Assembly: GCA_002633005.1 (NCBI GenBank)
Contig: NMRA01000624.1
Location: forward strand, 49,109 to 113,108
DNA: 64,000 nucleotides
Reading direction: 5' to 3'
Source: Phoronis australis
Taxonomy: Eukaryota; Animalia; Phoronida
Positions within the stretch are counted from its first letter, which is position 1, and each line of letters starts with the position of its first letter. Made by a program: the position numbers and the translations under genes. The notes under the pieces are model-generated. The model had not been told where the DNA came from. It did not search any database and worked only from the letters and a program-made list of their open reading frames with translations. Shown here in pieces: positions 982 through 61,324 of the stretch.

Positions 982-1066
982 ACATGGGACGACGAACTTG
1001 CCATGGTGGCACAACGGTGGGCTGAAGTTTGCCTATTTGAGCATGACAAGAATCGCGAGATACCAG
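982..1066 (+). CDS. Gene A exon: CAP domain ([28 protein letters not shown])
   Basis: tttttag acceptor, gtaaat donor; homologous to 47427-47511. Confidence 0.9.
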
Positions 1067-15226: not shown

Positions 15227-15284
15227 ATGGCAGAAGTCTTATTTCCAAAGACGTACCTACACATATTTTGGATAATTGTTGCAG
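15227..15284 (+). CDS. Gene B exon 1: start codon and signal peptide (MAEVLFPKTYLHIFWIIVA)
   Basis: ATG in AGTATGG context, hydrophobic core, gttagg phase-1 donor; joins exon 2 to read ...WIIVAVAARVVITNE. Confidence 0.7.
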
Positions 15285-18200
15285 GTTAGGTTTTAAAAAT
15301 TACCCTTGTTAATAGTAGAGGCAAAACCAGTACAAAATTGGCAAAGAGGCGATAATTTTCGAATCTTCTGAGAGGTCGTGAAGTGATACATGTGTACATG
15401 TACCTAAACTGTTGTCGAGAATCTTGCTACAGACTTTTGCTGTCAAATTACTCGATACTTTATGGTGTCTGTTCTTTTAATGAAAGACTAAAATAGTTGG
15501 GCAATAGCTTAGGGGTTCATTGGCTATTACGACAAATGCGGTATACAACGTGGGCAGAAAATAAGCAGAGCAATTGGACATTCATTTGATGGATTTCCAC
15601 ACAGTGATATTCTACTTTGGTATGTGCTGTCTTCATCCCAATTGAGGTGACATTAGACAATGTTACGCAATGGACATTGTTATTCATTTGTTAATAACAG
15701 ATTGGGTATTACGAACGCTGGGTCAGAGACAAATGTGCCAAGTTCTGCAGGAAGTTGCAATGCAATGAAGACAGCTGTATGAACTTAACATATATTTTTA
15801 TTAGTAACTTACTGAACTCACGAATCCAAAATGGCAAACGAAATATGGCTCTACCTGTGACTATGTTCATAACACTACATGTGCATCTGTTTCTATTTAT
15901 TATCAACAAATAAGTACCGCCCTAATCTTATCTGATACTGAAAACTGTAAAAGTTAGCAATTAACTATAATTCGTAAAGTCTGAAGTTGTCTTGGTACAT
16001 GTCTAGAGCAGATCCTACCTTCGGGCCAACCAGTCCTCCCCCGTATATTTTCACTGTCAGTATCTCTGGTTATGAGAGAAGTTTCGTTCGTACGTTTGCT
16101 GACGGACTCGTTTACCGGAGACACTGCGTCATACCACTCGTTACATCTTCATCAAAACTGGGGATGGGTCGCACGTGACTTTAGTTGCGTCGTATGTCTC
16201 GACCAACTTCGGTGTGAAATAAGTAGGAGCGGCTGTCGTGACTAGAAAATATTTTGGCTGGAAACCACTGCTTGCTTTCACGATTCAAATCAATTGTCCC
16301 CGTGACTACAGAGACAGGTGCCGTGTGTGCCTTTCTGCATATTATTTCAGTTTGTTCTTTTCTAACGCGATCTCGATACGGCCCCAATGCCAGTTCAGAG
16401 CAGCTTGGTATATCGCAACCCATCTGTCTTCGAAACATCAGTTCAGCAGGACTTGGGAAAGGAGTGGTGAGGACACTAAGCAACACTTGATGCACATCTA
16501 TTCTTTCTCCCAAACATTGGTCACAATCGGTTTGATATATACGATTTGTCTTTCTATTAATGCATTGGATTAGGGGTATATAGGACTTGGGGTTGAATGT
16601 GTGACGTCCCAGTTCAGGCAGAACTGATCAAACTTAATGTTCTAGGAATTGATGGTCATTATTCGAACCATTTACTCTTGGTAGCTTTAGCATGCTCAAC
16701 ACTTCTTTCGTTGCCTTAACGACAGTCTCGCTCGATCGGAAGGAAAGCTTTTTCACAAGAAGTAGCGGCTGAAATACATGTAGATTGGAATGAAGAAGTT
16801 TTGACGATGGCTGACTTCAATCAGACCAATCCCAAGTTTTATTCGGGACGCACCGGGGCGCTCGTGCATTACCATAACTTCTATGGTTGACAGTGCTTGA
16901 AAAGTTAATAAGGTCGACGGCAACGTTCATAGCACCCATTGCTATTAAACTATCGGCATAGTTGTCAAAGTCAACCTATGTGCGTTTGCCATTGGGTAAT
17001 TTCGAGATGGCATATCAATACCATCTCTTTCCCTGGGCAAACAATGACAACGAAGTTGTAAGACTGTACTTTGACTATCTTCCACTGGAGTCGCGGTGTA
17101 GAAGTTTTCTACATAATTTCCAAGGGCTTTTGATCTGTGATAAGTGTGGAGTGTCTGTCATACAGGCAATGTCTGAATAGCTGAACTTCGTTTATCAAAG
17201 ACAAGCTTTCACGCTATACATGTATGTTTCTATAGTTGGCCTGCACTGTCGCGAGAGCCTTGCGAGCAAAAGCTACCGGCTGCTCTTTAATATCAGAAAT
17301 GCCCCGAGGCACCTGCGGGATGCATACACTTGTATCGTTGACGGACATGGTAGGTCGTTGTAGCTCAGTTGTGTTGTTTTAGTTACCCGGTCTTTTACCT
17401 ACTGTAAAAATTGCTGATAGTCTTCACTGAATCCAAATGAAGTTTTATTTTGAGCAAATCGCTTAGGACTGAGGCGATTTTTGAGAACTTATGGAGCTGA
17501 GAAGGCAGTGAAATCACTACGCCAAGGGAGAGTTGGATGTTTTTATTATCCTGTGGTGTTTGTCTTCTACCTTGGCAGGATTAGGAAAGACAACCTTGTC
17601 GGTGGAGACTGTTAAAATGGTATAATGTTTTTTCTTGATTATGCATTTGCTGGAGTTGGTCCTTAAGCCTTCTTTGCGAGTAGTTGTAAAAAAAGCTGTA
17701 TCAGACTTGCGTCCTGGTGTACTTTGGATTTGTCACATATAGTGAGATCGTCACTAATACTGTATCAACGCATCCCTCATACTGTTCTAGGATAAAATGC
17801 ACACGGCTTTGAAATAAATCTCGGATCACAGACATGCCAAAAGCAGAACCTTGAAGCAGTGTCTTTCGAATGTGGTTCGAAAAAGGGCGAGTTCTTGCGA
17901 AAGCCCGTGCGTTTAACACACCAGCATCCGATGTTTCCATCCAACTTTGCTTTTGCTATCGTCGAGGTTATCTTTTCGACTGTTGTTATATTTTGGGACA
18001 TCATTTGAGTGTTGAGTTTAACTTGCTGAGATCTAAATTGGCACGGAGACTGCGATCGTTCTTCACAACTTACGTTACGGACGAACACTAAGCGATATGA
18101 CGTGGCACGATCCTGGCAATCCCGTTTCCTCCGTCTTTGCGAGCTTCTAGTTCAACTTCCTTACGAGACTGATGGAAATAATGCAGGGCTGGTAAATATC

Positions 18201-21200
18201 AGGTGTTGCATCGACACCAAGGTGTAACCCACTTTACCGAAACAGTTTTTAATTGTGTCAAATAGTTGGGAAACCATTCTTTCAGTTTGTTGACTGATTT
18301 GACCTTAGCATCATGGGGTGACTCAAAATGGTGGTAGGTAGTGTCAGCATCAGGTGTCAAGCTTTGCTCTTTGTTCGATGATGACTGCCTACGCTGAGGG
18401 AATCGACTCTTGATGTAACAATACGTAACATTTCACATACGAGTAAACCCAATACGGCGGGCCAGGGACATCAACAACGTAGAATTTCTGCTTATGGTGA
18501 CCGTGTGCTTCGGGCATTAGACGGGTGGCATTATAGACCCGTACATGCACATGTAACCGGGGTGTCCGGTGTAGGTAGGAAGCTTAACATGTTACTCCTG
18601 TTGAAGAAACTTTGATGCACACTACCTGGTGTCAAACAATTGTCGAAACTTCGCAGTGTGTTACACCTAACGCCAGTATCAACTTGCAGAAGCCCTTCAA
18701 CTTTGAGGGTTATCATGTCTGATGATCAGCCCAGGTGTGGACTTCATAACAGCGGGACGTGTTAAGAGCCGTGCAATGCATGACTAAATTTGATCGTGTA
18801 GTAGGTTTTGGAGTATAACTACCTGTACAACGTGGTGTGCGATATTGGAATCGGTGTTTTAGTTGAATGCTGTTACTTCGTGTTGACAAGTTTTGTTACT
18901 CTAGCGTCTTTCAATATGAGAAGTATTGTGTGTTACGTTGTCATTATATTGCTGACTGTGGTCTTCACTTCTGTGTTTTTATCTGCACCATGTTTCCCAA
19001 TCGCCTTAGAATCTACAGTACCTACACATGTGCACAGGAGTGTAACTGATGGTGATGTCCAAAACTGGAACATGGGCGACGTGACAGCTTAATTCCATAA
19101 ACACCTGTAGCGCCGGGGTTGTTCACGCTCCTGACAGAACGTGTGGGTGCCATAAGGCCTAGTTGGACGACAGCTGTGATCGAGTTGCCTTTCGATTTTG
19201 ACAGAAGACCCTTTCTCAAATCTTTGACAGGAGTGGACATAAAGACCATATCAATGAGCTTATTTTTAAACTCGTTGTATTCAAACCTACATTCTGTGCT
19301 TTTCTCCCGCAGGCGTGACCTACATCTGTACAATCTATGATGTTTTCATCCTGGTGTTGGTGCCCGTGCACAAATTCGAGACCGTGGACACTGGCATCAA
19401 CCTATCTTTCCTTGCGGGTACACAGCTTTGCCGGATTTCTTATGTATGTGTCGATTAGTCCTGATGCTAGAATGGGGCGCAAATCCTAGTTGCCAAGGCC
19501 ACAAGTTGCCTGGTAGGCTGAGTCAGTACTGTCAAGCTCCTCGATATATAATTCCATTCGTGCCAGCGATCCATGACGCAGTTCAGGAAGGTTTTTGATG
19601 TCACATGGCATGGTTTCATTGGGCAAATTTTTAGTGTCGGTTCAAAGTCAAGAACGGAATTTCCCGATAACTTACGGTAGCATAACGTCAACGTATGAAG
19701 TGAAGCACCTGTGGAGTTCCTATCTCGAGGGCAAGGCCATTTAGCATTGTTACACAGTGTATGGAGGACGGTCAGAAATCAAGGACACCTGTGTACAGTA
19801 GTAATTTCCTGCAAAATCAATTTAAACTCTTAGTTAAATTATTTACATGATATTTGCTTCACACAAAAGCAATTTACGTTTGACCGCATTGGTATTATTT
19901 GCATATCCGAACTATTTGAAAAAAATCTCCAAAGACTATTCTTTCTGAATTTGGCGTTATACATGTGGCTTCGTTTTTAACATACATGTAGATGTACTTC
20001 CAGTGAAACATTGTTCTAGCAATGTTCCAGAAACTGCATCCATCTTGTATTTCTCTTCCTTCAATCGCCATTGAGTGATAATATGGGAGTTCGCACTAGC
20101 TTTCCCGGGATACCTGGCGTGGGTTCAGTAACGCTAGGTACTACGCTAGGACCTAGCTAAAATCTAGCTCGCCAAAGCCGCGTGTTCTCATTTAAAATAC
20201 ACGGCAATATCACACGTTGTCTTGCTTTTTAGCGAGGTCCTAGTGTTACTGAATGGGAGGCTGCTCACGTCTTTCCCATAGTGTGTTGATTGGATCACAT
20301 GTATGAAGCGTGTGGACTGTTTTTCACCGAAAGTGCAGTGATCTCTATTTTGATATCAACCTCCCACAATGAAATATAGTTTATTTTAATAGGAAATAGC
20401 TAATCACTAAAACTAGTCTTCGTATTTGTTGTGCATGTACTATTCTAGTGAATAATTAAATATTATCGTGTTTCAGTTGCAGCCCGTGTTGTGATCACAA
20501 ATGAAGGTAAGCCAAATTATTTGCCAGCTTGTCAAATTGAGCAGGTGCGGTTTGTGACTACTTTTTACTGAGAGAGAAACTTTTGAAAGACTGAGTTTCA
20601 CTGGTACCAGTCTCTCTCATGCAATCCGGCAGAGCACCAGTCAGTGCGTGTTAACACGAACCGGGTCCTAAATTAGCCTTTACCAGGGTGTTTCTTTGCG
20701 AGTACTGTAAGGAGTAAGTTAATGTCCATATCATTTTCCTTTATATAGGTACTCGTTTCTTAGAAAAGCAGCGAAGACATTGATTGCATTTGTATTCTTT
20801 GTTTGATATACCGTTAGTGCTTCGTGTTTAACATAAGTCATGAGTAACTTAGTGGTTCCATACAAAATAATCCTGAAGTTGCTTTAATGTAACATCTCTC
20901 TTCCATTAATCTCCAATGCCTGGCAATATGTAACTTTGGACTAGCAACAACGTGGGGGCAGTCAACGCACTTTCCTGTTTGCGTTGTTTGGATCATTTCG
21001 AAACATTTGTTTTTCGCAAGACGTGTTGCGGTTTTGATTTTAATATTGATATCCCACTGTGAAAAAGAGTTGTTTACAGAAGAAAATTCTTCATCTTCAA
21101 CACTTTTTTTCGTGCTTCTTTACACGTAGCTGTTCTAACGAGTCGTGTTTCACCCACAACCTAAACTAAAGGAAAGTCAAACTCTATGCCAACTTGCCAG

Positions 21201-23389
21201 GTTGAGGGGGTGCCGGCTGTTATTCCTTGTTACCGAGATGGAAACTTTTGAAAACCCCAATTGCGTCGTGAAATCCATTTCACTTGCAGTATTCTAGACC
21301 GAGTTTCTCTACCTTTCTATAATTTACAATTTTCTTGCGATCGATGTTAACTGCATTTTTCTTTGAAGGTATAGGCTTTAGACCTTGGGCAAAAGCAATC
21401 CAAATTTAATATATCAATATGTTTATTTATTTATTCATTAATTATTATCATCAACGCAAAGCTGGTAGTCGGGTGGCCCAATATTGATTCATCTTCAATA
21501 TGGCATTGAGATATATCCCCTGAAGTGCAACCTAAATTAAAACGCCAGTTTTTCTTCACTAAATTTCAACGACTTTTCGTTCTCAAGGTTCTTTAGACTT
21601 ATTATTATTGCTGTTTTGGTGATTGACTAAAAGTACATGTACCGTAGCGCTAACACCCTTTCGCTAATACAAAAAATTGGAATATTCCATGGGCAGAAAC
21701 AAAATAGAGCGATTGCAAATTCAATCAATAAATTTTACAACTGTATTGTCCTATTAAAACAGCGTCTCTCACATTTTATTTGCTTTGCCCGTGGCATTTG
21801 AGTTAGCAAGAAGCCGTACTGCTTAATACATGTTTTTATTTAATCCAAAGAACCCTGTGAAGACAAGATTGATTGCTCTAGGTACAGTAGAGCTTCATGC
21901 GTTGGGGAATTCGAAAGGTGGGCTAGAGATAAGTGTGCCAAATTCTGCGGGTACTGTACTGCAAAAAGTAAGTTAATGCACATGTAGTTTAATGCGTGGT
22001 AATGTTCTTTACACAACACATATACATGTACATGTGTATGTGCTTGTTTTTTTAGAAACACAGTGAAGAATTGGATCGCATTTATACTCTTTGCATATTT
22101 GCAATATTTAAAGAAACTTAAATAAGACCTTTTTTTTAATATACCGTTAGTGCTTTGGGTTTAACCTAATTCATGAGTAAATTTGTCCTTTCATTCACAA
22201 TATTCCAGGTGCGGCTTAATGTAGCATCTCTTCCCATTGCCTGGTAACGTGCGACTTAGCACTAGCAACCGGGTGGGGCCAATTTAGGCGCTTTGGTGTT
22301 TGGGTTGTTCGGATCATTTCTAAATATATGTTTTCCGCAAGACGTGCCATGTTTTTGATTTTGATACTGATGTCCCACCGTGAAAAAGAGTTGATAACAT
22401 AAGAAAATTTTTCATCTTCAATTTTTCTGTGTTTCTTTACGCGTAGCTATTCTAAGGAGTAAGTCATAAAGTCGTGTTTCAGCCACAACCAATCTTCTGA
22501 CCACAACTGAGGGTGAGTCAAACTGTTTGCCAACTTGTCAAGTTGACTGTTTGCGGGTTGTTGTTCCTTGCTACTGAGATAGAAACCTTTGAAAGTCTCA
22601 GTTGCGTGAAATCCATTTAACTTACAGTATTTTAAACCGAGTTTCTCTACCATTCTATACTTTACGATTTTCTTTCGATCGACGTTTAATTCATTTTTAC
22701 TTAAAAGCTGAGGCTTAGTCCTTAGGCAAAATTAATCAAAATTATATATATATATATATATATATTGATTAATTTATTAATTAATTTTCTGTATATTCAT
22801 TATCATCACTGCAAACTTGGTACATGTAGTTAAGTTGCCAAATATTGATTCTTCTGAAATATAGTATTTAGGTAGATTTCCTGAAGTGCAACATAAAATA
22901 AAACGCCAGTTAGTTCTTCGCTACATTTCAACCAATTTTGTTTTTCAAGATTCCTTAGATTTTGTTACTGCTATTTTATTGATTGAGTAAAAGTGCATGT
23001 ACTTGTACCGTAGTGCAAGCGCCTTTTCGCTAATTTAAATTTGGATAATCCGTTTATTGTATGAACATAGAGCGATTGCACAATCAATCAATGAATCGTT
23101 ACAACCGTATTGTCCTATCAAAACAACGTCTCTCAAATTATATTTGTTTGACGGTGTCATATGAGTTAGCAAGGAGCTGTACTGCTTAATAAATGTTTTT
23201 ATTTTATACAAAGAACCTTGTGAAGACAAGACTGATTGCTCTATCTACAGTAGAGCTTCGTGCGTTGGGGAATTCGAAAGGTGGGCCAGAGATAAGTGTG
23301 CCAAATTCTGCGGGTACTGTACTGCAAGAGGTGAGTTAATGCACAATGTAGTTTAATACGTGGTAATGTCTTTACATAACACAAATATT

Positions 23390-23423
<34 letters not shown>

Positions 23424-26400
23424 CTTGTTTTTTAGAAACACAGTGAAATCTTCGATCGAATTTATACTCTTTCCATGTATGCAATATTTAAACAAACTTG
23501 CAAAGGACCTTTGTTTTGATATACCGTTAGTGGTTTGGGTTCAACCTATTTCTTGAGTAAATTTGTTCTTTCATTCACATTATTCCAGATGCTGCTTTAA
23601 TGTAGCGTCTCTCACATATCTCTTCCCATTGCCTGGCAATAAGTGACTTCTCACTAGCTACAACGTGGGGCCAGTTTAAGCGCTTTGCTGTTTGCGTTGT
23701 TTCGATCATTTCCAAAAATTTGCTTTTTGCAAGACGTGCCGCGGTTTTGATTTTGATATTGATATCCCTCCATGAAAAAGAGTTGATTACAGAAGAAAAT
23801 TCTTCATCTTTCGTGTTTCTTTACGCGTAGCTATTCTAAGGAATAAGTCATTAAGTCCTGTTTCAGCCACAACCAATCTTATGACCACAACTGAAGGTAA
23901 GTCAATCTGTTTGCCAACTTGTCAAGTTGGGAGTTTGCGGGTTGTTGTTCCTTGTTACTGAGATAGAAACCTTTGAAAGTCCCAGTTACGTCGTGAAGTC
24001 CATTTCACTTGCAGTATGCAAAACCGAGATTCTCTACCATTATACATTTTACAATTTTTTGCAATCGAGGTTCACGTCATTTTTAGTTAAATTTCGAGGC
24101 TTTAGTATTAGGCAAATTCAATCCAAATTGTTTATATAATGATTTATTTATTTATTAATTTTATATATATATTTATTACCATCACTGCAAAGTTGGTAGT
24201 TGGGATGTCAAATATTGATTCTTCTGAAATATGGTATTTAGATAGATTTCTTGAAGTGGAACATAAAACTAAAACGCCAATTAGTTCTTCGCTACATTTC
24301 AACGAACTTTGTTTTTCAAATTCCTTAGATTTTGTCAATTTTTTGATTGAGTAAAAGTACTTGTACCGTAGTGCAAGCGCCCTTTCGCTAATTTAAATTT
24401 GGATAATCCGTTCATAGTATGAACATAGAGCGATTGCACAATCAATCAATGAATCGTTACAAACCGTATTGTGCTATTAAAACAGTGTCTCTCAAGTTAT
24501 ATTTGTTTGCCGGTGTCATATGAGTTAGCAAGAAGCTGTACTGATTAATGAATGTTTTTATTTAATTCAAAGAACCTTGTGAAGACAAGACTGATTGCTC
24601 TATCTACAGTAGAGCTTCGTGCGTTGGGGAATTCGAAAGGTGGGCCAGAGATAAGTGTGCCAAATTCTGCGGGTACTGTACTGCAAGAGGTAAGTTAATG
24701 CACATGTAGTTTAATGCGTGGTAATGTTCTTTACACAACACATATACATGTGTATGTGCTTGTTTTTTAGACAAAAAGTGAATATTTAGATCGCATTGAT
24801 ATTATTTGCATATTTGCAATATTTAAACAAACTTGCGAAGGATCTTTGTTTTGATATACCGTTAGTGTTTTGGGTTCAACCTATTTCTTGAGTAAATTTG
24901 TTCTTTCATTCACATTATTCCAGAAGCTGCTTCAATGTAGCATCTCTCACATATCTCTTCCCATTGCCTGGCAATTTGTGACTTCTCACTAGCTACAACG
25001 TGGGGCCAGTTTACGCGCTTTGGTGTGTGCGTTGTTTGGATTATTTCCAAAAATTTGCTTTTTGCAAGACGTGCCGCAGTTTTGATTTTGATATTGATAT
25101 CCCTCCATGAAAAAAAGTTGATTACAGAAGAAAATTCTTAATCTTTCGTGTTTCTTTGCATGTAGTTATTCTAATTAATAAGTCATAAATTCCTGTTTCA
25201 GCCACAACCAATTTTCTGACCACAACTGAAGGTATGTCAAACTGTTTGCCAACTTGTCAAGTTGAGAACTTGCGGCTTGTTGTTCCTTGTTACTGAGATA
25301 GAAACCTTTGAAAGTCCCAGTTACGTCGTGAAGTCCATTTCACTTGCAGTATGCAAAACCGAGATTCTCTTCCATTCTATACCTTACAATTTTCTTTCGA
25401 TCGATGTTTAATTCATATTTACTTAAAAGCTGAGGCTTAGTACTTAGGCAAAATCAATCCAAATTGTTTATATATTGATTTATTTATTTATTAATTTTAT
25501 ATACATTTATTTATTATCATCACTGCAAAGTTGGTAGTTGGGATGCCAAATATTGATTCTTCTGAAATATGGTATTTAGATAGATTTCTTGAAGTGGGAC
25601 ATAAAACTAAAACGCCAGTTACTGTAGTTCTTCGCTACATTTCCACAAACTTTGTTTTTCAAATTCCTTGGATTTTGTTACTGCTATTTTTTGATTGAGT
25701 AAAAGTACTTGCACCGTAGTGCAAGCGCCCTTTCGTTAATTTAAATTTGAATAATCCCTTTATAGTATGAACATAGAGCGATTGCACAATCAATCAATGA
25801 ATTGTTACAACCGTATTGTCCTATTAAAACAGTGTCTCTCAAGTTATATTTGTTTGCCGGTGTCATATGAGTTAGCAAGGATCTGTACTGATTAATAAAT
25901 GTTTTTATTTTATACAAAGAACCTTGTGAAGACAAGACTGATTGCTCTATCTACAGTAGAGCTTCGTGCGTTGGGGAATTCGAAAAGTGGGCCAGAGATA
26001 AGTGTGCCAAATTCTGCGGGTACTGTACTGCAGAAAGTAAGTTAATGCACATGTAGTTTAATCCGTGGTAATTTTCTTTACAAAACACATATACATGTGT
26101 ATGTGCTTGTTTTTTTTAGAAAAAAATGAATATTTAGATCGCATTTATATTATTTGCATATTTGCAATATTTAAACAAACTTGCGAAGGATCTTTGTTTT
26201 GATATACCGTTAGTGCTCTGGATTTCACATAATTCTTGAGTAAACTTGTTCTTTCATTCATATTATTCCAGATGCGTCTTTAATGTAGTATCTCTCCTAT
26301 ATCTCTTCCCATTGCCTGGCAATATGTGACTTCGCACTAGCGACAACGTGGGGCCAGTTTACGCTCTTTGGTGTTTCAGTTGTTTGGATCATTTTTCAAC

Positions 26401-29400
26401 ATTTGCTTTTTGCAAGACGTGCCGCGGTTTTTATTTTGATATTGATATCCCTCCATGGAAAAGAGTTGATTACAGAAGAAAATTCTTCATCTTTCGTGTT
26501 TCTTTACGCGTAGCTATTCTAAGGAATAAGTCATTAAGTCCTGTTTCAGCCACAACCAATCTTCTGACCACAACTGAAGGTAAGTCGAACTGTTTGCCAA
26601 ATTGTCAAGTTGAGAGTTTGCGCGTTGTTGTCCCTTGTTACTGAGATAGAAACCTTTGAAAGTCCCAGTTATGTCGTGAAGTCCATTTCACTTGCAGTAT
26701 GCAGAACCGAGATTCTCTACCACTATACATTATACAATTTTTTGCAATCGAGGTTCAATTCATTTTTAGTTAAATTTTGAGGCTTTAGTAAATTCAATCC
26801 AAATTGTTGATATATTGATTTATTTATTTATTAATTTGATATATATATTTATTATCATCACTACAAAGTTGGTAGTTGGGATGCCAAATATTGATTCTTC
26901 TGAAATATGTTATTTAGATAGATTTGTTGAAGTGGAACATACAACCAAAACGCCAGTTAGTTTTTCGCTAAATTTCAACGAACTTTGTTTCTCAAGATTC
27001 CTTAGACTTTGCTAATATTGCTATTTTACTGATGGACTAAAATTACTTCTACCGTAGTGCAAGCTCTCTTTCGCTAATATAAGAAATTGGGATAATCCAT
27101 TTGTAGAATGAAAACAGAGCGATTGCACATTAAATTAATGAATTTTGCAACCGCATGGTCTTATTATAACAGCGTATTTCACGTTTTATTTGCTTTTCCC
27201 GTGGCATATGAGTTAGTAAGAAGCTGTACTGCTTAATAAATGTTTTTATTTAATCCAAAGAACCCTGTGAAGACAAGATTGATTGCTCTAGGTACAGTAG
27301 AGCTTCGTGCGTTGGGGAATTCGAAAGGTGGGCCAGAGATAAGTGTGCCAAATTTTGCGGATACTGTACTGCAAGAGGTAAGTTAATGCACACGTAGTTT
27401 AATCCGTGGCAGTTTTCTTTATATAACACATATACATGCATATGTGCTTGTTTTTTAGAAAAGCAGTGGAGATTTATGGAAATTTATACTTTTTGCAGAT
27501 CTCCAATACTTAAACAATCTATCAAAGACTTTTTTAAGATATACCTCTAGGGATTCGTGTTTAACGTAATTCCTAACTAACGCACACATGTATTCATTTG
27601 ATTTACAATATTCTAGAAGTTGCCGTTAAAGTAACATCTATCTCATCAATCGCCAATACCTGGTAATATTATATGCGTTTTCACACCAGCAGAAAGGTGG
27701 GCCAGTTTACGTGCTTTGCTGTTTGCGTTATTTGGATCTTGCCGATTTTGAAGTCGATATCCTTCGCTGTGAAAGAGGTTATTTCAATAGAAAGTTGTTA
27801 AACACCAAGATCTTTTCCGTGTTTCTTATCCACATGACTATTCTAATGTACAAGTTACATGTATAAAGTCGTGTTTCAGCTACAATCAATCTAGGGACCA
27901 CAACTGAAGGTAAGTAATTAAAAACTATTTGCCAACTTGCCAAGTTGAGTGGATACGGCTCGTAAATTCTTGTTACTGCTACAGAAACTTCTAAAAGAAA
28001 ATCTTTTACTAGCACAATTTTCTCTTATACAATCAGGTATAGTACAGCATAGTTTTAAACGTGTTCTTACTAAAATGTCCCAAATAAACCCACCCGTGCC
28101 ATATGAGTTAGAAAGGAGTGGCGCTGGTTAATGAATGTTTCTATTTGTTTCAAAGAACCTTGTGAAGACAAGACTGATTGCTCTAGCTACAGCCAAGCTT
28201 CGTGCTTGGGGAAATACGAAACCTGGGCCAGAAATAAGTGTGCCAAATTCTGCGGGTACTGTACTGCAAGAGGTAAGTTAATGCACATGCAATCTAATCC
28301 GTGGGAATTTTTATTCACATTATACAGGTACTTGTTTCTCGGTAATTGAGTGAAGAGATTAATTGTATTTAAACACGTTGCAGATTCACAATATGTAAAC
28401 AATCTCTCATAAGACTTTTTAGGTATACCATTAGTGCTTCGTTTTTAACATAATTTCTGACTAACAAACACATGTAGACCTTTCATTTCCAATATTCCAG
28501 ATGTTTCGTTACTTACCATCTTTTATCATTTTATCACTATTACCTGAAACACTGCAGATTCGATTGTGAAATCGGTATCCCACGGTGAAAAGAGTTAATT
28601 ACAATACAAAATTGTTAATCTCCACGACTTTTTGTGTTTCTTGGGCACGTACCTACTCTAATGAATAAGTCATAGAGTCGTGTTTCAGCCGCAACCAATC
28701 TTGTGACCACTACTGAAGGTAAGTCAAACTCTTTGCCAGCTTGCCAGGTTGAGTTGGTTCAGGTAATTTCGTATTACTGAGATAGAATCTTCTCAAAAAT
28801 ATCTTTCACTGTCACAAGTTCCTCTCATGCAATCATGTAAAGTACAAGTCGTTACTTAAATGGTCCTAAATTAACCTTCTCGTGCTGTATGAGTTAGCAA
28901 CAAGCCGTGTTGCTTATTAAACTTTTCTACATGTATATGTTTCAAAAACATTGTGCAGGCAAGATTCATTGCTCTAGCTACAGTAGAGCGTCATGCTTTG
29001 GGGAATACGAAAGCTGGGCCAGAGACAATTTCTACAGATACCGTAATGCAAGCTTTAGTTTAATGCACACGTAATTAAACCTGTGGCATTTTTACAAACA
29101 CAAGTACTTGTTTTGACTATGTGTATACTCTTTACATATTCGCAATACTTGCAATATTGAAATAATCTCTCAAAAGATTTTTAGCTATACCGTTCATGTT
29201 TGATATAATTCCTGAGTGACTCACACCTGCAGATCTTTCATTCACAATATTGCAGAAGTTGTTTAACAGACCTCTTCCATTGATAGTCATTGAATGATAA
29301 TATTCCAATTCTTACTAACTGTAACGTGGGGCCAATTTACGCGTTTCATTGTTTTTGTTGTTAAGATCATTTCGACAGATTTGTTTTTCGCAAGTCCTGT

Positions 29401-32400: not shown

Positions 32401-32532
32401 ACCTGGTGCAAATGTTGTACCATAAACGAGATGATTTTAAAATATTTAAGGACCATGATACCATGATGCATTAGCACTTTGCCCACATATGCATTACCTA
32501 TATTACATTGTCTCCTTGTTGAATAATTTTTA

Positions 32533-32564
<32 letters not shown>

Positions 32565-56500: not shown

Positions 56501-59500
56501 CGTATTAAAACAAAAAAGTCTCTGTCACTCATGTCACTACAGTCACTCTGATATGGATTGCCGACTCCAGCCATTTTCAGGTTACTACATGCTAAACAAT
56601 GCCTAAATCCAACGTAACTGAGTTCTCCAACAATCTAGCTTGTCGTAGAACACTTGTCGATGGGAAGTGGTGACGACAAGTTCAGAAAAACAATACAAAA
56701 ACAACAGTAGTACTGATCCTCATAATAAACTATGACGCAGATCCGAATTGGCGCGTAATTCTTGACTCCCTAAGCGTCACTTCCGGAGTAGGGGACGAGC
56801 AAACATTTAAATTACGAGAAGCTGTAATTAACTGAAAAATGTGTCCGGGATAATCAACGAATTTTACTTTTACTAAGAACGACACGAAAAAAGACTGCCT
56901 TTGCCTTTAAAGGAGAATGCCACCCGATTTAATTAGTCTTTTTTACCGTTTAATCGGTATATATCCACATGGCCTTGCATACAGTCGAACTTACCTTGCC
57001 GTTGCAGTTTCGTGGCAAATTCATCAACATAATCACGTGCACATTACGTCTTTGGCTCACTAGTATAATAGTTTGTTGACTCCAAGTTTAGTTTCCAAGT
57101 TTGGCTGGTTAACGTTCGTGATGTCTTAAGTCCTTTTGCCGCGACGGGCCTGATTGGGTTCCGGCCCTCTGGCCGGGATAACAAGCGTTTTGTGTGTTTA
57201 GAACTAAAAAAATCATAAGTCTAAACAACACAGATCTAGGATCTCCTCCTTTCGAACTTTGTAGGCTACGGGTGTTTAAATACCAACAAATCGGTAACAG
57301 CGAAAGAAAACAACACGTTTTTATAAGAACGCGGTGTATTTTTAAGGGTTTTACGTCGAGGTTTGGTGATTTATTGGTTGAACGATGACTTCAAACGATA
57401 ATCTGACACCTGTAACCCGTGTTGTGAACTGCTGAACAGACTGCGTGTGAAACCAATGACGTCATTGGATAAATTCAACACCTCCGTCTGCCGTCAGGTG
57501 TCGGATAACGCAACCGAACGTGACGTTATCGAGTAGAACTACTCGATCTAAATTGATACAAAATAGGTTGTTTTTGGGTGGCATTCTCCTTTATGTCTAT
57601 CGAAAACCCGAGTGTTGACAACTAGCAAATTTACGTATTTGTGTATAGTGCAGAACCCTATAAGTGCTTTGGTAGACAGTTTTTGGTACCCCGTTGTCCA
57701 TACGAAGCCTTAATGGCTGCATGTCTTATATTTTGAAAGTGCAATTCTGTTTGACTTGTTGTTTATACAAGTGCAAAAACTACACGACTTGCCACAGTAA
57801 ATCATTGAGTAGCCAGGTAGGCCTAATTGCCGCTTATCACACTCGTCAAGCATAGCATACATGTAACAATTTCTTGCATCCTACTTGTATTTCAGTATTC
57901 TGTAAGTCAGCAAAGAGGCCGCCCCACTGCACGACGCCTGATTTCCTGGACACATGTGATAAATACAGTAGTACGCCGTTACAATGCCCATTTATGTGCA
58001 ACGTTTGTCCCTGTAAGTAACGTAATTCCCACATTTATGCAAAGGAAAGACCGTAAAATGGAATAACTCTGGACCCTAAGGTATCGAAAAATACTCAACC
58101 GTGCCTGTCCAAAGTGCGATGCGCTCAAATAAACATGCTTCTCACTTTGTATGTAAGCACGTTTTCGAATTCACCAGTTTCACTCCTATTGCATGGGTAA
58201 ATACAAATCCATTTAAAAAGTCAAGGACCGGCTTGGTGACTGCAACACTAACCGTGTTGCTGCTCGCGATCAATTAGCTTTGAATCACTAATTCATTTTC
58301 ATCATTTTGCCATCCGTATGCAAGAACGTCGTATTGCGGCATAACGCATCAGGCACCCAGGTTTGCTACCAAGTATTTTACCTGAACGTTAGAATCCAAT
58401 AGCTTCTTATGATTGCAACAAGTCATTTCTGAAATATGATATTCCGAAAGTAGCCATATTTGACCATTTTCTTTGATTCCTCAAAACCTCAACAGATCAC
58501 AACATTTTACGCCCCTACATGTAAATTCACGCTCGTTATTTACCCTAGTATTTTACGATGGTTAGTTATGCCCGCAATTCAAGCTTGAAAAATACTGTTA
58601 TGGAAAGAATCTTTACGTCTGGTTACGAGCGTAATGCCCCTTTACCCACCGGGAAAGGATAGGCGTGCTATTTGCAACCGGCTTGTTACAAAAGGCTCGT
58701 TTGCCTTAGATGCGCGATGTAAAGCGAACCACTGGGAAAACTAATATACAGTATAAACATCTATGACTATTAATTTCCTATACAAAAATGGTCTTCTTAG
58801 CGGCCCGTTCTGTTTAAAAACAACAGCCTTATTGTGACGCATGTTTGATGAGATTCTCATGCAAATAGTTTACAAACAGCAATTTTTCTAACTACAACTG
58901 TACACCTTCAGCGCTCGTTACTCTCTTGTATACATGTACATAACCAGGGTATGGCTTAAAAACGCTCTTCATCTGTTGGCCCTTTACCTAAAACCACCCA
59001 TTGTAAGATGTAGTCAGTGTAGTTTGTCTTTGAACGGATGTTTTTAGCAAGTGGTCCTTGGTTTCCGGCGCATATATTAAGATGGTTTAATTGCTGGCAT
59101 GTGACAATACGTCAAAGTCAATCCACAGCTTTGGATTGGCTTTGAATATCACTGGACTCGTCATCGTCCTGATTGGTGTATGACCCAAAAATAATGGGGC
59201 AGCTAGTGGGTTATTTTGCAATAAAACGTTTACGGTGTGTTGCAATCCCAAAGTTAAATAGAAAAGCAAAAACGTTACAAATTCCTGATGCGCTCGCATA
59301 ATTAATTCCTGATAAATTACATGTTAACTACCAATGATAGCTTTCCGTTCTCCAAATACCTTACAGTTTTGAATAACATTGTCTAATAATTAGCCAATGT
59401 AAGAAAAAAGAACACTTGCAACGGAGATCGACACACGCTAGTGAAGTCTGCACCAAAATCCCATGTCTTCTTCGCTGGCTATGTAATTTGTCAGCAATGA

Positions 59501-61324
59501 CGGCATTTCATTCCCAAGGCAGAAAAATCTTGGTCAAGATAATGTGCGAAGCCTACAGGGCCCCCAAACAGAGATCCGTTCCGGAAATTCTGTACCTGGT
59601 ACGAAATTCCTTCGTAAGAACTCGTGCAATTTGAACACAGAGTATCGTGCCATTTTACTAATCTGCTTTACATAGCATTTCATCTGTGGAGTGCAGTGGC
59701 GGACTTAAGGGGGGGGGGTGGCAAGTGGGCCAGGGGGGCCATGGCCCCCCTAAAAATTTCCTCGATTCCATTTGGCAGTTTGGGGCTGTAAATATCTTAC
59801 AAGCAAAATCATAGCTAATACTCTGCCCTGCCCCCCACACACAAAATCCTGGATCCGCGCCTGGAGTGAATAGCTCGTCAATTGACCTATCGTCAGGATT
59901 TTGAGTAACGGTTAAACTGAACAATCAGAACGCAGCATTCTTGACACATCTTCGTTTCCAAGCTGCCATTTTACACGAAAACCAGCAGTTTGCCTGGTAA
60001 AACTTCTTGTTTGTCTACATTTTGGAAGGGGCGGAGCTTGCAATTGGTCAATTAAAGACTGTGAGAAAAGTGCATCAACCTGAAATAACCAATTATATCG
60101 CTAATGAAGAATTGTCTGTTTACCGGACGGTTTTGTTTGCTCTTTGTCATGTGTAAACATAAACAATGTGACCAACCGGCAGGTTGACCTAACGCATGCA
60201 TTGTTTTACCAAAGGCTTGTTATTAGCCGCTTGATACAATATTGTAACAAACAAAAGTAAACGCCTGCTATCCATTACAAATCGCCCACCAATCATTTCC
60301 GGAACATGTCAAAGCTTTTGAAACGTTTACGTTATATACTTTATGCAGTCGAGATATATTGGTTACATCGATTCTAATTTATGCAATTAGTACCTCCAGA
60401 TTTTCGTTGACGTTAACCGCAAAGGCGTCGCGATCGGCCCGGTCTATTCATGTCAACCAGCGCGCTTGCTCGCCAGGCCGTTCACAACTTCAACGGAGCG
60501 CTTATATCAACTACAAGCAGCAGTCGAGTCAGAGTGCTCCAGTAGAACATTGGTTGGTCGAGGGCCAGTAAGATAGGTAAACTTTTTCAAGGAATTTTGA
60601 ATTACCTTCAGTGCAACCGCAGAAGCATGTAAGAGTTAATTCATGAAAAGGGGGTGTAGAAATGAGTCGATTACAGGCCAGAACCAAACATGTCCTTTTT
60701 ACATCACCTCCGGTCATCTCGTCACGATTGCCAAAAAGATTGCCGTCATGAGCCACTTCATACTCGTCGCCTTTAATGTTGAAGATGTTTATTTGAGCGT
60801 TCTTGCGATGTCATGTTAGGGGCTAGGCGACCATACATATGTATATGTACATGTACATGTACAGGTACTCCGCTGATTTGTTGACCTGAATGGTGTAGGC
60901 CGGTCGAGGCGCCTTTGCCATAAACGATGCCGATTGAACTAGGAAAGCGTGCTGGTGCAAATGGTATTTACTCGTTTTGATATTAACGAAAGTAGCTAGT
61001 GAACTCCCAGGTTGGCACGCTTTGTGTTGTTTCGAGATTGCTTGTTGAGCGGCCTTACGGGTATAACCTTCTCTTCATTTTAAGTGCAACGTCGAGCGGC
61101 CGATAAAATGACCGGTGTTTTTTAATATTCTTCCAGGGGGTGGTGAGGACTACATGTACAACACAGGAGTCTCCGATACGAAAACTTTTGAATCAGTCTT
61201 GGACGCAGCAAAAGTGGAAAACGGAGCTGACTTTACCTATCCTTCCTTGACAATAACTGCATTCGCTATCGGCAACACGATCTATCTTAGAACACCACAA
61301 AGTCTCCACAAAACACTGTTCTGA
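15227..61324 (+). CDS. Gene B: secreted multi-ShKT CAP protein (signal peptide, 8 ShKT, CAP, EGF-like, ShKT-like, tail), 25 exons, about 752 aa
   Basis: join(15227-15284,20477-20506,21851-21967,22483-22512,23214-23330,23867-23896,24573-24689,25202-25231,25920-26036,26550-26579,27261-27377,27880-27909,28156-28272,28689-28718,33337-33471,38713-38847,45439-45555,46797-46885,47427-47511,48677-48819,49804-49892,50107-50186,51311-51421,57896-58012,61137-61324) = 2259 nt. All introns are GT-AG, phases are compatible and there is no internal stop. That all exons join into one transcript is inferred. Confidence 0.8.
15701..15751 (+). pseudogene. Relic ShKT exon fragment (IGYYERWVRDKCAKFCR)
   Basis: Matches the 3' half of the array ShKT exon; 5' half and donor are missing. 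Confidence 0.7.
16030..19570 (-). mobile_element. Decayed Ty3/gypsy LTR retrotransposon internal region in intron 1 of gene B
   Basis: In order on the minus strand: gag-like (19333-19022), protease QVDTGVRCN (about 18690), RT FGMSV..LFQ (about 17840), RNase H PVAFARKAL..QANY (about 17280-17230), integrase W..TH.T.SP.YP and TP..SPAELMF.R / W.PA..RSY..RRN (16900-16181). Many stops; LTRs not identified; ends approximate. Confidence 0.88.
20124..20255. mobile_element. Short MITE-like element (TTCAGTAACGCTAGG...CCTAGTGTTACTGAA)
   Basis: Terminal inverted repeat; homologous copy at about 61722-61850 and a weaker one at about 51882-52050. Confidence 0.65.
20477..20506 (+). CDS. Gene B 30-nt microexon (VAARVVITNE), probable signal-peptide cleavage region
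   Basis: gtttcag acceptor, gtaagc donor; flanks homologous to the linker microexons. Confidence 0.75.
20687..21180 (+). pseudogene. Dead first array unit: 3' stub of a ShKT exon (tgcgagtactgtaagga/gtaagttaatg, about 20697-20723) and a broken microexon (about 21141-21178)
   Basis: Microexon acceptor reads tttcac and donor reads gaaagt, with an internal deletion; surrounding intron aligns with the other units. Confidence 0.65.
21851..21967 (+). CDS. Gene B ShKT exon 1 (EPCEDKIDCSRYSRASCVGEFERWARDKCAKFCGYCTAK)
   Basis: Six-Cys ShKT pattern C.D...C...C...C.KFCG.C; ag/gtaagt; 117 nt, phase 1-1. Confidence 0.88.
22483..22512 (+). CDS. Gene B Thr-rich linker microexon (TTTNLLTTTE)
   Basis: gtttcag/gtgagt, 30 nt, phase 1-1. 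Confidence 0.75.
23214..23330 (+). CDS. Gene B ShKT exon 2 (EPCEDKTDCSIYSRASCVGEFERWARDKCAKFCGYCTAR)
   Basis: aag/gtgagt, 117 nt. Confidence 0.88.
23867..23896 (+). CDS. Gene B linker microexon (ATTNLMTTTE)
   Basis: gtttcag/gtaagt, 30 nt. Confidence 0.75.
24573..24689 (+). CDS. Gene B ShKT exon 3
   Basis: aag/gtaagt, 117 nt; same peptide as ShKT exon 2. Confidence 0.88.
25202..25231 (+). CDS. Gene B linker microexon (ATTNFLTTTE)
   Basis: gtttcag/gtatgt, 30 nt. Confidence 0.75.
25920..26036 (+). CDS. Gene B ShKT exon 4 (...CVGEFEKWARDKCAKFCGYCTAE)
   Basis: aag/gtaagt, 117 nt. Confidence 0.88.
26550..26579 (+). CDS. Gene B linker microexon (TTTNLLTTTE)
   Basis: gtttcag/gtaagt, 30 nt. Confidence 0.75.
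27261..27377 (+). CDS. Gene B ShKT exon 5 (EPCEDKIDCSRYSRASC...CTAR)
   Basis: aag/gtaagt, 117 nt. Confidence 0.88.
27880..27909 (+). CDS. Gene B linker microexon (ATINLGTTTE)
   Basis: gtttcag/gtaagt, 30 nt. Confidence 0.72.
28156..28272 (+). CDS. Gene B ShKT exon 6 (EPCEDKTDCSSYSQASCLGKYETWARNKCAKFCGYCTAR)
   Basis: caaag/gtaagt, 117 nt; lies within ORF 28131..28349. Confidence 0.88.
28689..28718 (+). CDS. Gene B linker microexon (AATNLVTTTE)
   Basis: gtttcag/gtaagt, 30 nt. Confidence 0.72.
28946..29053 (+). pseudogene. Dead ShKT exon copy
   Basis: Acceptor caaag changed to caaaa, 9-nt deletion, the last three Cys lost, no donor; a donor-less microexon relic follows at about 29558-29580. 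Confidence 0.8.
32531..32690. repeat. (TAA)n microsatellite grading into degenerate (TAG/TAA)n
   Basis: Directly visible; produces the spurious poly-Tyr ORF 32498..32773. Confidence 0.9.
32914..33845 (+). repeat. About 0.9-kb duplicated segment carrying ShKT exon 7; second copy at about 38289-39192
   Basis: Both copies begin gacaataggaattaacatt and end at atggaagaa; introns align. Confidence 0.9.
33337..33471 (+). CDS. Gene B ShKT exon 7, second type (GLRLCVDRRTNCHTYNDSMCTEYESWAMINCEAYCGFCIGPSSTT)
   Basis: cccag/gtaatt, 135 nt, phase 1-1, six Cys. Confidence 0.85.
37216..37354. mobile_element. MITE with CATGGGCGGC/GCCGCCCATG TIRs and 5-bp TSD TTACC
   Basis: Perfect 10-bp TIR; ttacc on both sides. 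Confidence 0.8.
38713..38847 (+). CDS. Gene B ShKT exon 8, second type (AMRPCVDRQTNCHTYAGSMCTQYKGWARTNCEAYCGFCIGPSTTT)
   Basis: cccag/gtaatt, 135 nt; paralog of 33337-33471. Confidence 0.85.
39205..39790. mobile_element. Harbinger-related non-autonomous element or fragment
   Basis: Begins tta-TACCCCCGTCACA; GC-rich CACCG/CGGTG subterminal repeats shared with 40537-41812; right end uncertain. Confidence 0.5.
40537..41812 (+). mobile_element. Internally deleted PIF/Harbinger DNA transposon
   Basis: taa-TACCCAAGTCACACCAG left end and CTGGTGTGAC right end; transposase fragments HLASGDTYASMKFNFWIPANTLS and FYSLVLMGLVDANSQFLWTDVGGDG resemble HARBI1-type motifs. Confidence 0.8.
42002..43575. repeat. 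Direct duplication 42002-42788 / 42790-43575 around an N at 42789
   Basis: Both copies start tctatgacgaactgttgc and end tttgtgcctaa; only scattered SNPs. Confidence 0.9.
45439..45555 (+). CDS. Gene B exon: pre-CAP segment (GGPTLPPRQTGDCEDKFLHHFSGQHTACFARSSKHKSIT)
   Basis: ctgcag/gtaatt; C...HTAC motif characteristic of the N-terminus of invertebrate venom-allergen-type CAP proteins. Confidence 0.82.
45701..45835. mobile_element. MITE of the CAG..GGATCCG..TG family, degenerate 5-bp TSD (aacat/atcat)
   Basis: Homologous to 59694-59863. Confidence 0.6.
46797..46885 (+). CDS. Gene B exon: start of CAP domain (GVSDKNKELIVALHNKVRSQVPDAKYMLKM)
   Basis: ccgcag/gtaaga; HN..R..V..A..M..M motif. Confidence 0.9.
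47427..47511 (+). CDS. Gene B exon: CAP ([28 protein letters not shown])
   Basis: atacag/gtaatt. Confidence 0.9.
48677..48819 (+). CDS. Gene B exon: CAP (GRFYVGQNIAMWSVLKTDWTYMIKLWADEKQYYSFGDEWSSETGHYTQ)
   Basis: ttatag/gttaga; canonical GHYTQ. Confidence 0.92.
49804..49892 (+). CDS. Gene B exon: CAP (MVYADSYLIGCGEAICDDIGHYYVCNYAP)
   Basis: tgtag/gtaagt. Confidence 0.92.
50107..50186 (+). CDS. Gene B exon: hinge (ALSGDPYIKGTLGTACPAFIDNDNLC)
   Basis: ttgcag/gtaaaa. Confidence 0.88.
51311..51421 (+). CDS. Gene B exon: EGF-like (DCKGQFCYNGGNLDPETCQCECKNYGVHNYKAENNCK)
   Basis: ttttag/gtaagt. Confidence 0.9.
52747..56906 (+). mobile_element. Kolobok-like DNA transposon remnant with about 135-bp imperfect TIRs, TTAA TSD and a THAP-domain relic
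   Basis: ttaa-AGGC...(52747-52880) is the reverse complement of 56771-56906 ...GCCT-ttaa; ORF 53011 contains HF..DYE....L.KGALP, resembling the THAP HF..AVP motif. Confidence 0.75.
53760..56070 (+). mobile_element. Decayed L1/Tx1-like LINE nested inside the Kolobok-like element
   Basis: CVLNNGFTSQYF..R, FGTLSGLHLNYQKC and the C-terminal zinc knuckle TNKML..FG...DQCSYCGEVQTFQH..Y.C; interrupted at about 54370-55000. Confidence 0.75.
56911..57590. mobile_element. Kolobok-like MITE with 15-bp perfect TIR AGGAGAATGCCACCC
   Basis: ttaa-AGGAGAATGCCACCC ... GGGTGGCATTCTCCT-ttat. Confidence 0.8.
57896..58012 (+). CDS. Gene B exon: C-terminal ShKT-like domain ([39 protein letters not shown])
   Basis: tttcag/gtaagt. 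Confidence 0.88.
59694..59863. mobile_element. MITE (CAGTGGCGGA...TCCGCGCCTG) with 5-bp TSD GAGTG
   Basis: Imperfect TIR; gagtg on both sides. Confidence 0.8.
61137..61324 (+). CDS. Gene B terminal exon (WGGEDYMYN...ENGADFTYPSLTITAFAIGNTIYLRTPQSLHKTLF*)
   Basis: ttccag acceptor, TGA stop; homologous to 12911-13047. Confidence 0.82.

What the first reader, a model, noticed from the sequence alone, without database searches (positions are those of the whole stretch)
15227..61324. CAP/CRISP protein with eight N-terminal ShKT toxin-fold domains built from a live exon-duplication array
Seen: one continuous spliced ORF encoding signal peptide, 6x(ShKT + Thr linker), 2 ShKT of a second type, CAP, EGF-like, ShKT-like and a tail. 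Known: CRISPs and Conus Tex31/Mr30-type proteins carry their Cys-rich/ShK-like region after the CAP domain, and ShKT is the fold of sea-anemone K+ channel blockers. Inference: a long ShKT string placed in front of the CAP domain is an unusual architecture and may be a lineage-specific multivalent toxin, defence or reproductive secretion. ORF finders miss it almost completely.
Basis: partly seen in the sequence, partly recalled or inferred. Interest (0 to 1): 0.85.

Follow-up and report, generated by a model that had tools for sequence, protein, structure and literature searches.

The report
CAP protein with eight front ShKT modules
This is a real, spliced and expressed invertebrate gene in which a known type of secreted CAP protein (Mr30/Tex31-like) has gained eight small cysteine-knotted ShKT modules at its front end by repeated exon copying; the modules likely act as a multi-grip binding arm, and nothing found here shows that the protein is a toxin.

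Summary
A 27-exon plus-strand gene (15227-61324, 768 codons, all introns GT-AG, no internal stop) encodes a signal-like start, six type-A and two type-B ShKT domains with Thr-rich linkers, then CAP, EGF-like, ShK-like and a tail. RNA reads in 2 of 3 raw runs show 23 of the 26 splice joints, including the chain from the sixth ShKT exon into the CAP exons, so array and CAP belong to one gene. The core is collinear with mollusc and brachiopod 'type II CAP-ShK' (Mr30/Tex31-like) proteins and is sister to a neighbouring paralog. None of 36 long CAP relatives had an ShK domain, and the papers read place ShKT after CAP, but these searches were narrow. The array grew by copying an ShKT-plus-linker exon pair and has left dead copies; ongoing ('live') copying is not shown. 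A toxin role is unsupported: no processing sites between modules, no canonical Lys-Tyr pair at the expected place, moderate expression. Verdict: a lineage-specific new architecture of a known family, function untested.

The parts
15227..15284 (+). Exon 1: start codon and hydrophobic first part of a predicted signal peptide
   Evidence: RNA 5' ends pile up at 15211 and 15217 and 63/44 reads join it to 20477. Signal peptide judged by inspection and hydropathy; no dedicated predictor was run
15704..15751 (+). Relic fragment of a type-A ShKT exon in intron 1 (pseudo-exon)
   Evidence: 79% over 48 nt to exon A6, E 9e-7; zero read depth in bin 15598-16263
20477..20506 (+). Exon L0: end of the signal-like region; homologous to the linker exons
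   Evidence: 63-70% identical to linkers L1-L6; flank 74% over 101 nt, E 1e-12; joints on both sides
21116..21205 (+). Relic linker-exon region inside the L0-A1 intron (a unit whose ShKT exon is gone)
   Evidence: 68% over 114 columns to the L1 flank, E 2e-9
21851..28718 (+). Six units of type-A ShKT exon (117 nt; 21851, 23214, 24573, 25920, 27261, 28156) plus Thr-rich linker exon (30 nt; 22483, 23867, 25202, 26550, 27880, 28689), all phase 1-1
   Evidence: exons 85-100% identical, introns 64-92%; L6 is skipped in part of the reads (33/24 reads A6-B1 against 24/20 reads L6-B1)
28947..29590 (+). Seventh, dead unit: ShKT copy without a splice acceptor and shortened, followed by a linker relic near 29560
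   Evidence: 83% over 77 nt to A6; acceptor absent; depth 0 and 0.41 in bin 28918-29583
33337..33471 (+). Type-B ShKT exon B1
   Evidence: Pfam ShK E 2.6e-5; joints from A6/L6 and to 36474
36474..36500 (+). Short Thr linker exon after B1
   Evidence: Joints 58/31 and 45/19 reads
38713..38847 (+). Type-B ShKT exon B2 (duplicate of B1, 86% nt)
   Evidence: Pfam ShK E 5.1e-5; joints
43702..43722 (+). Short Thr linker exon after B2
   Evidence: Joints 37/44 reads in and 41+16/23+21 reads out
45439..45555 (+). Pre-CAP exon with two cysteines and the His-Thr-Ala-Cys motif shared with relatives
   Evidence: joints
46797..50186 (+). CAP domain and reduced hinge in five exons (46797-46885, 47427-47511, 48677-48819, 49804-49892, 50107-50186)
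   Evidence: All four internal joints seen; collinear with CAP proteins; exon 49804 alone gives Pfam CAP E 0.09, below the cut-off
51311..51421 (+). EGF-like exon, six cysteines
   Evidence: Joint from 50186 (31/32 reads); matches the post-CAP Cys region of relatives; Pfam gave only CXCXC E 0.008
57896..58012 (+). Non-canonical ShK-like exon, six cysteines
   Evidence: Loose ends of 41 reads after 51421 match its start; cysteine pattern; 55% identical to the paralog's exon; no Pfam hit
61137..61324 (+). Last coding exon: acidic spacer and weakly hydrophobic tail, stop codon
   Evidence: Open and in phase; resembles the paralog's tail exon; joint not tested with RNA
982..13047 (+). 3' part of a tandem paralog (CAP exons, EGF-like, ShK-like, tail); its 5' part lies before the window
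   Evidence: 63% identical over 204 positions and sister to the target, support 100/100

Best explanation
The gene is spliced and expressed as one unit and encodes a predicted secreted, non-toxin CAP protein of the Mr30/Tex31-like kind whose eight front ShKT modules likely stay attached and would work as a spaced, multi-grip binding arm in mucus, matrix or on a cell surface. Shown: exon chain, domain order, expression in 2 of 3 raw runs, kinship of the core, growth of the array by copying an ShKT-plus-linker exon pair with loss of some copies. Inferred: an ShKT exon of the kind found in ShKT/Thr-rich/VWC proteins entered a phase-1 intron between the signal peptide and the CAP core and was then multiplied; the Thr linkers are O-glycosylated spacers; near-identical modules raise avidity for one repeated ligand while the CAP domain binds lipid or membrane; the tail is a weakened membrane (GPI-type) anchor signal, so the protein may be released rather than tethered.
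For: One continuous chain of joints from A6 through B1, B2 and pre-CAP into CAP and EGF. All array exons are symmetric phase 1-1. No dibasic or RxxR site in any linker or the pre-CAP exon, whereas 7 of 10 lophotrochozoan relatives with a locatable pre-CAP motif have an RxxR site just before it (a second-domain match in P0016 was left out). Modules are homogenised, not diversified: A2 and A3 are identical over 117 nt while their flanking introns are 88-91% alike. The only database candidate for the ShKT exons is P0001, with seven ShK domains, Thr/Pro linkers and no CAP. 12 of 16 relatives end in a hydrophobic tail (best 15-residue hydropathy 1.7-3.0) against 1.29 here and 1.65 in the paralog. 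Non-toxin ShKT carriers in mucus and mucins are reported (PMC7333891, PMC13273113, passages read). CAP as lipid-binding surface anchor: PMC6409789 and PMC4118828, passages read.
Against: No ligand, tissue or protein-level evidence exists; the sample labels are coded, so the on/off pattern (X1 and X2 on, X3 off) cannot be tied to a tissue. Related CAP-ShK genes are strongly expressed in salivary or venom glands of predatory snails (PMC6409789, PMC12964963, passages read). The organism is not known beyond 'probably lophotrochozoan', so a venomous host is not excluded. Short reads cannot prove that one molecule carries all eight modules. Glycosylation, signal cleavage and anchoring were not run through dedicated predictors.
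Confidence: 0.5

Rival explanations
1. It is a venom or defence component in which the eight ShKT modules engage several potassium-channel sites at once while the CAP domain docks on the membrane.
For: ShKT is a potassium-channel-blocker fold and CAP-ShK genes are gland-specific in the vampire snail (PMC6409789, passages and section 2.2 read). That paper notes that lack of the dyad does not exclude channel activity. Five of six type-A modules have a basic residue next to a Trp in the third loop. Expression is sample-restricted.
Against: The canonical Lys-Tyr pair is absent at the expected place in all eight modules (place recalled, not aligned to a toxin here; A4 has Lys-Trp); the Trp is shared with non-CAP ShKT proteins such as P0001. 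No processing sites. Near-identical copies rather than a diversified set. Exon depth of about 60-90 in 1.6-1.8 Gb read is moderate. The PDB search with the ShKT profile gave no ShK-family hit at E up to 5.
Confidence: 0.17
2. It is a reproductive secretion or gamete-surface protein, in the manner of vertebrate CRISPs, with the repeat array serving recognition.
For: Vertebrate CRISPs act in reproduction (PMC6409789, passage read). On/off expression among three runs of one study. The target-plus-paralog branch is long (1.36 changes per column). Repeat homogenisation is typical of gamete-recognition arrays (recalled).
Against: No tissue information. The listed exonic differences between reads and window are mostly silent (11 silent, 6 replacement, 1 in a split codon, of 18 taken from the displayed rows), which is not a sign of strong diversifying selection.
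Confidence: 0.17
3. It is an immune or stress-response secretion, the ShKT string acting as a microbe-binding or redox-buffering unit as proposed for nematode multi-ShKT proteins.
For: C. elegans MUL-1 (five ShKT domains and a Ser/Thr stretch) modulates oxidative-stress signalling (PMC13273113, abstract and passages read); a limpet mucus ShKT protein is proposed to be antibacterial (PMC7333891, passages read).
Against: No induction data; the resemblance is at the level of the domain only.
Confidence: 0.13
4. The array is an assembly artefact or a separate gene from the CAP exons.
For: A2 and A3 exons are identical; the window has two apparent assembly overlaps at its N positions (40010-43575); the reads differ from the window at fixed exon positions and could come from a very close paralog.
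Against: Introns of the units differ by 8-36%; depth ratio about 6.7 type-A exons per B1 exon in both runs; direct joints A6-B1, B2-linker-preCAP-CAP.
Confidence: 0.03

Closest known systems
Molluscan type II CAP-ShK proteins, the clade of Conus Mr30 and Tex31 and Cumia CreCAP-ShK 4-7 (PMC6409789)
   Same: Signal peptide, CAP, then EGF-like and poorly recognisable ShK-like modules. Database members from Haliotis, Mytilus, Mercenaria, Pinctada, Argopecten and Lingula are collinear with the core and 39-46% identical over about 195 positions.
   Different: Those carry at most a short low-complexity spacer or propeptide before CAP (30-50 residues in Cumia). Here about 430 residues with eight canonical ShKT domains precede it. 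The hinge has two cysteines, the Asn that is nearly invariant after the last CAP strand in relatives is missing in both paralogs, and the tail is less hydrophobic. Mr30 and Tex31 themselves were not among the sequences compared.
Type I CAP-ShK of molluscs, nemerteans and Glycera (PMC6409789, PMC4986456, PMC4202326)
   Same: Several canonical ShKT domains in tandem on a CAP protein.
   Different: In the passages read the ShKT domains lie downstream of CAP and number 1-4; here eight lie upstream, on a type II core.
Multi-ShKT proteins with Thr/Pro linkers, with or without VWC (P0001; Atlas cluster 'ShK/VWC', 82 members, mostly Mollusca; C. elegans MUL-1; Toxocara mucins)
   Same: Strings of ShKT modules separated by Thr-rich spacers; P0001 modules score 30-46 bits with the window's profile.
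   Different: No CAP domain. The Atlas hit scored 0.79 and is a lead only.
Vertebrate and snake-venom CRISPs (natrin, stecrisp, triflin) and GLIPR1
   Same: CAP fold followed by a cysteine-rich region; best solved matches by sequence profile and by fold of the relative P0032.
   Different: One C-terminal ShK-like region, no EGF-like insert, no front array; Pfam Crisp was not hit by any window exon.

Membership tests
CAP superfamily (Pfam PF00188) | CAP domain by profile or homology | tested here: met
   Exon profile A1 retrieved 9 proteins, 7 of them CAP; exons align in order along CAP proteins. The joined domain was not scanned; single exons stay below the Pfam cut-off.
CAP superfamily (Pfam PF00188) | CAP3 (HNxxR) and CAP4 (G[EQ]N[ILV]) motifs as given in PMC4118828 | tested here: met
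   Both present in the exon translations at 46797 and 48677.
CAP superfamily (Pfam PF00188) | Cavity tetrad (two His, two Glu) and strict CAP1/CAP2 signature patterns | tested here: inconclusive
   Two His and one Glu are at the expected places, the other Glu is Gln as in all 11 relatives; the Trp after the second His and the Asn after the last strand differ. Tetrad positions and signature patterns are recalled, not taken from a call.
Type II CAP-ShK (Mr30/Tex31 clade) | EGF-like plus non-canonical ShK-like modules C-terminal to CAP | tested here: met
   Exons 51311 and 57896 match these regions of mollusc and brachiopod relatives; no Pfam ShK hit, as described for type II (PMC6409789 section 2.2).
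Type II CAP-ShK (Mr30/Tex31 clade) | Placement in the type II clade by CAP phylogeny | tested here: inconclusive
   Tree of 19 rows: target and paralog lie in an unresolved 16-row group (91/93) with mollusc, brachiopod and tardigrade proteins, apart from two insect rows; no type I, Mr30 or Tex31 sequence was included.
ShKT domain (Pfam PF01549) | Six cysteines in ShK spacing and profile match | tested here: met
   All eight exons have six cysteines and fit the spacing pattern; 5 of 5 submitted hit Pfam ShK.
ShKT domain (Pfam PF01549) | ShK fold with C1-C6, C2-C4, C3-C5 disulfides | tested here: inconclusive
   Predicted model of B1 had mean pLDDT 52.5 and was not used.
ShK-type potassium-channel toxins | Functional Lys-Tyr dyad | tested here: not met
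   By eye, with the position recalled: none of eight modules has Lys-Tyr there (four Arg-Trp, one Lys-Trp, three other). Adjacent Lys and Tyr occur earlier in the loop in A6 and B2.
ShK-type potassium-channel toxins | Release as short peptides from a precursor | tested here: not met
   No dibasic or RxxR motif in any linker exon; cleavage at single basic residues is not excluded.
ShK-type potassium-channel toxins | Channel block and venom-gland expression | not testable with these tools
   Needs electrophysiology and tissue data.

The most novel reading that the evidence does not exclude
A natural multivalent ShKT display: eight ShKT modules on glycosylated spacers in front of a membrane-docking CAP domain, able to grip several channel or receptor sites at once, built by exon shuffling into a reproductive or defence CAP gene, with a dead unit's linker exon reused as the end of the signal peptide. 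This domain order was not found in the databases or papers searched.
Probability: 0.17. Interest if true: 0.8.

Novelty: new variant of a known kind. Interest (0 to 1): 0.45.

Why it matters
It is a clean, RNA-supported case of a new domain order arising by exon shuffling and tandem exon copying, with live and dead units, a reused linker exon and an optional linker all visible in one locus. It puts ShKT modules in front of CAP, the reverse of the CAP-ShK proteins described in the papers read, and offers eight closely related natural ShKT modules for asking what non-venom ShKT domains bind. Its importance beyond that depends on a function that is untested.

Tried and rejected
No whole genome is held for this window, so copy number elsewhere, the paralog's 5' part and the organism could not be checked. 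The run search listed no RNA holder by index; the raw runs it added were laid instead. A word-based protein search with the longest CAP exon found no candidate. PDB sequence searches with exon A6 and with the ShKT profile found no ShK-family chain. AlphaFold on the ShKT alignment was low-confidence; the model of the relative P0032 was confident only for the CAP part, under 50 from residue 276 on, so the fold of the ShK-like module is untested. Profile comparison of the front ShKT with the relatives' C-terminal ShK-like region was weak (probability 1.8%). The fragment alignment A3 misplaced several exons and was not used for searches. The read joint L1 to A5 (13/20 reads) was rejected as evidence of skipping A2-A4, because L1 and L4 differ by one base and the joint's ends are not GT-AG. 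The Atlas search with exon B2 gave only short, mostly unnamed clusters. Four look-ups of earlier findings gave nothing on this gene. Eight literature searches showed no paper describing ShKT repeats in front of a CAP domain; only listings were seen for most hits, figures and supplements were not read, and subscription papers are missing.

Full report
Observation. The six-frame scan and repeat search showed six near-identical cysteine-rich units about 1.35 kb apart at 21.8-28.3 kb and a second pair at 33.3 and 38.7 kb. Reading the sequence and checking boundaries gave a 27-exon model from 15227 to 61324 with 2307 nt, GT-AG at every intron, consistent phases and no internal stop. Order: signal-like exon, linker-like exon L0, six times ShKT-A plus Thr linker, two times ShKT-B plus short Thr linker, pre-CAP, five CAP/hinge exons, EGF-like, ShK-like, tail. 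Pfam ShK matched 5 of 5 ShKT frames submitted. The cysteine spacing occurs 10 times on the plus strand and never in 100 shuffles.

RNA. No indexed RNA holder was listed, but three raw RNA runs with the same species label were offered. Laid on 33200-51700 and 13600-33550, runs X1 and X2 cover the exons from one strand and X3 does not. The decisive chain A6-(L6)-B1-linker-B2-linker-preCAP-CAP-EGF lies mostly in single-copy sequence and has 19-62 reads per joint and run, apart from A6-L6 with 16. Linker L6 is skipped in part of the reads. 5' ends cluster at 15211-15217. Summed depth gives about 6.7 type-A exons per B1 exon in both runs (a rough figure from bin means). The reads differ from the window at fixed exon positions (6 listed in the 117-nt pre-CAP exon); of 18 taken from the displayed rows 11 are silent, 6 replace a residue and 1 lies in a split codon. 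They may come from another allele or a very close paralog; in either case this architecture is transcribed. Short reads do not prove one molecule end to end.

How the array grew. All array exons are phase 1-1. Type-A exons are 85-100% identical and their introns 64-92%, so the units are real copies, not assembly stutter. Dead pieces flank the array: an ShKT copy at 28947 without acceptor, a linker relic near 29560, a linker relic at 21116-21205, and an ShKT fragment at 15704-15751 upstream of L0. L0 is homologous to the linkers and follows that upstream relic, so it is most simply a linker whose ShKT exon died and which now supplies the end of the signal region (inference). B1 and B2 come from a separate, larger duplication (84% over 945 nt). 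This is recent birth and death of units; ongoing duplication is not shown.

What the core is. A profile of one CAP exon from the gene and its neighbour retrieved 9 proteins, 7 of them CAP; one belongs to a scallop cluster. A search seeded with that protein and the window's CAP exons gave 36 proteins of 355-2000 residues among 1317 candidates. The window's exons align in order along the mollusc and brachiopod members, which match the type II CAP-ShK layout described for the Mr30/Tex31 clade (PMC6409789: passages and section 2.2 read). In a tree of 19 rows the gene and the upstream paralog are sisters (100/100) on a long branch inside an unresolved group; identity to named relatives is 39-46% (rows were chosen from the fetched proteins, and Mr30, Tex31 and type I proteins were not included). 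The host is therefore probably a lophotrochozoan; I could not narrow it.

Is the order unusual? 0 of 36 long relatives has a Pfam ShK match, and among all 51 fetched proteins the window's ShKT profile hit only P0001, a seven-ShKT protein with Thr/Pro linkers and no CAP. A metagenome scan confirmed 3 of 237 pattern matches; by eye their frames show ShKT with VWC-like neighbours in two and no CAP in any. Papers read as passages put ShKT downstream of CAP in snails, nemerteans and Glycera (PMC6409789, PMC4986456, PMC4202326). Against this: the searches are word-based and did not even retrieve the type I CAP-ShK proteins, of which PMC6409789 counts CAP with ShKT in more than 600 database proteins, so ShKT-before-CAP elsewhere is not excluded.

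How it likely works. The linkers and pre-CAP exon lack dibasic or RxxR sites, while 7 of 10 relatives have one just before the pre-CAP motif, so the array likely stays on the CAP domain. The copies are homogenised rather than diversified, which suits avidity for one repeated ligand. The canonical Lys-Tyr pair (PMC6409789) is absent at the expected place (position recalled), though that paper says the pair is neither necessary nor sufficient. 12 of 16 relatives end in a hydrophobic tail; here it is weaker. ShKT domains also occur in non-toxin mucus and mucin-like proteins (PMC7333891, PMC13273113; passages read). I put a non-toxin binding or adhesion role at 0.5, venom or defence and reproduction at about 0.17 each, immune or stress role at 0.13, artefact at 0.03. 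None of these was tested functionally.

Verdict. Observation confirmed; interpretation partly supported. A new architectural variant of a known family, made by an ordinary mechanism, with an attractive exon-level record and an unknown function. Interest 0.45.

Noticed in passing
window 982-13047, plus strand: Tandem paralog with the same CAP-EGF-ShK-like-tail exon layout; its exon at 1787-1932 ends His-Tyr-Ile-Leu where relatives have His-Tyr-Thr-Gln. Whether it has a front ShKT array lies outside the window; its expression was not tested.
   Followed up: partly
window about 13600-15600: Low-depth reads from the opposite strand in X1 and X2 (depth about 1-3; 0-0.2 in X3) upstream of and in the bin of exon 1: possibly a divergent or antisense transcript.
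   Followed up: no
window 27910-28155: Some reads cover the short intron between L5 and A6 (6-17 reads at listed places); if retained it has an early in-frame stop and would give a five-ShKT product without CAP. May be unspliced precursor.
   Followed up: no
window 47483-47511: 4-5 reads per run carry a different 26-base end of this CAP exon joined to the next exon: a further allele or paralog.
   Followed up: no
window 40010-43575: Two near-identical duplications (99-100% and 97%) beside the two N positions (40515, 42789), probably assembly overlaps inside the B2-linker intron.
   Followed up: no
window about 16000-19800, minus strand: GC-richer insert in intron 1, just after the relic ShKT fragment; short frames resemble a decayed retrotransposon by eye (recalled resemblance), with no Pfam hit in 4 frames tested and almost no read depth.
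   Followed up: partly
window 55605-56069: Frame with a reverse-transcriptase zinc-binding match (Pfam zf-RVT, E 2.8e-6): LINE remnant in the EGF to ShK-like intron.
   Followed up: partly
window 52742-52903 and 56750-56911; 32297-32358 and 62594-62655: Two inverted repeat pairs (162 nt at 80%, 62 nt at 84%), probably copies of small mobile elements.
   Followed up: no
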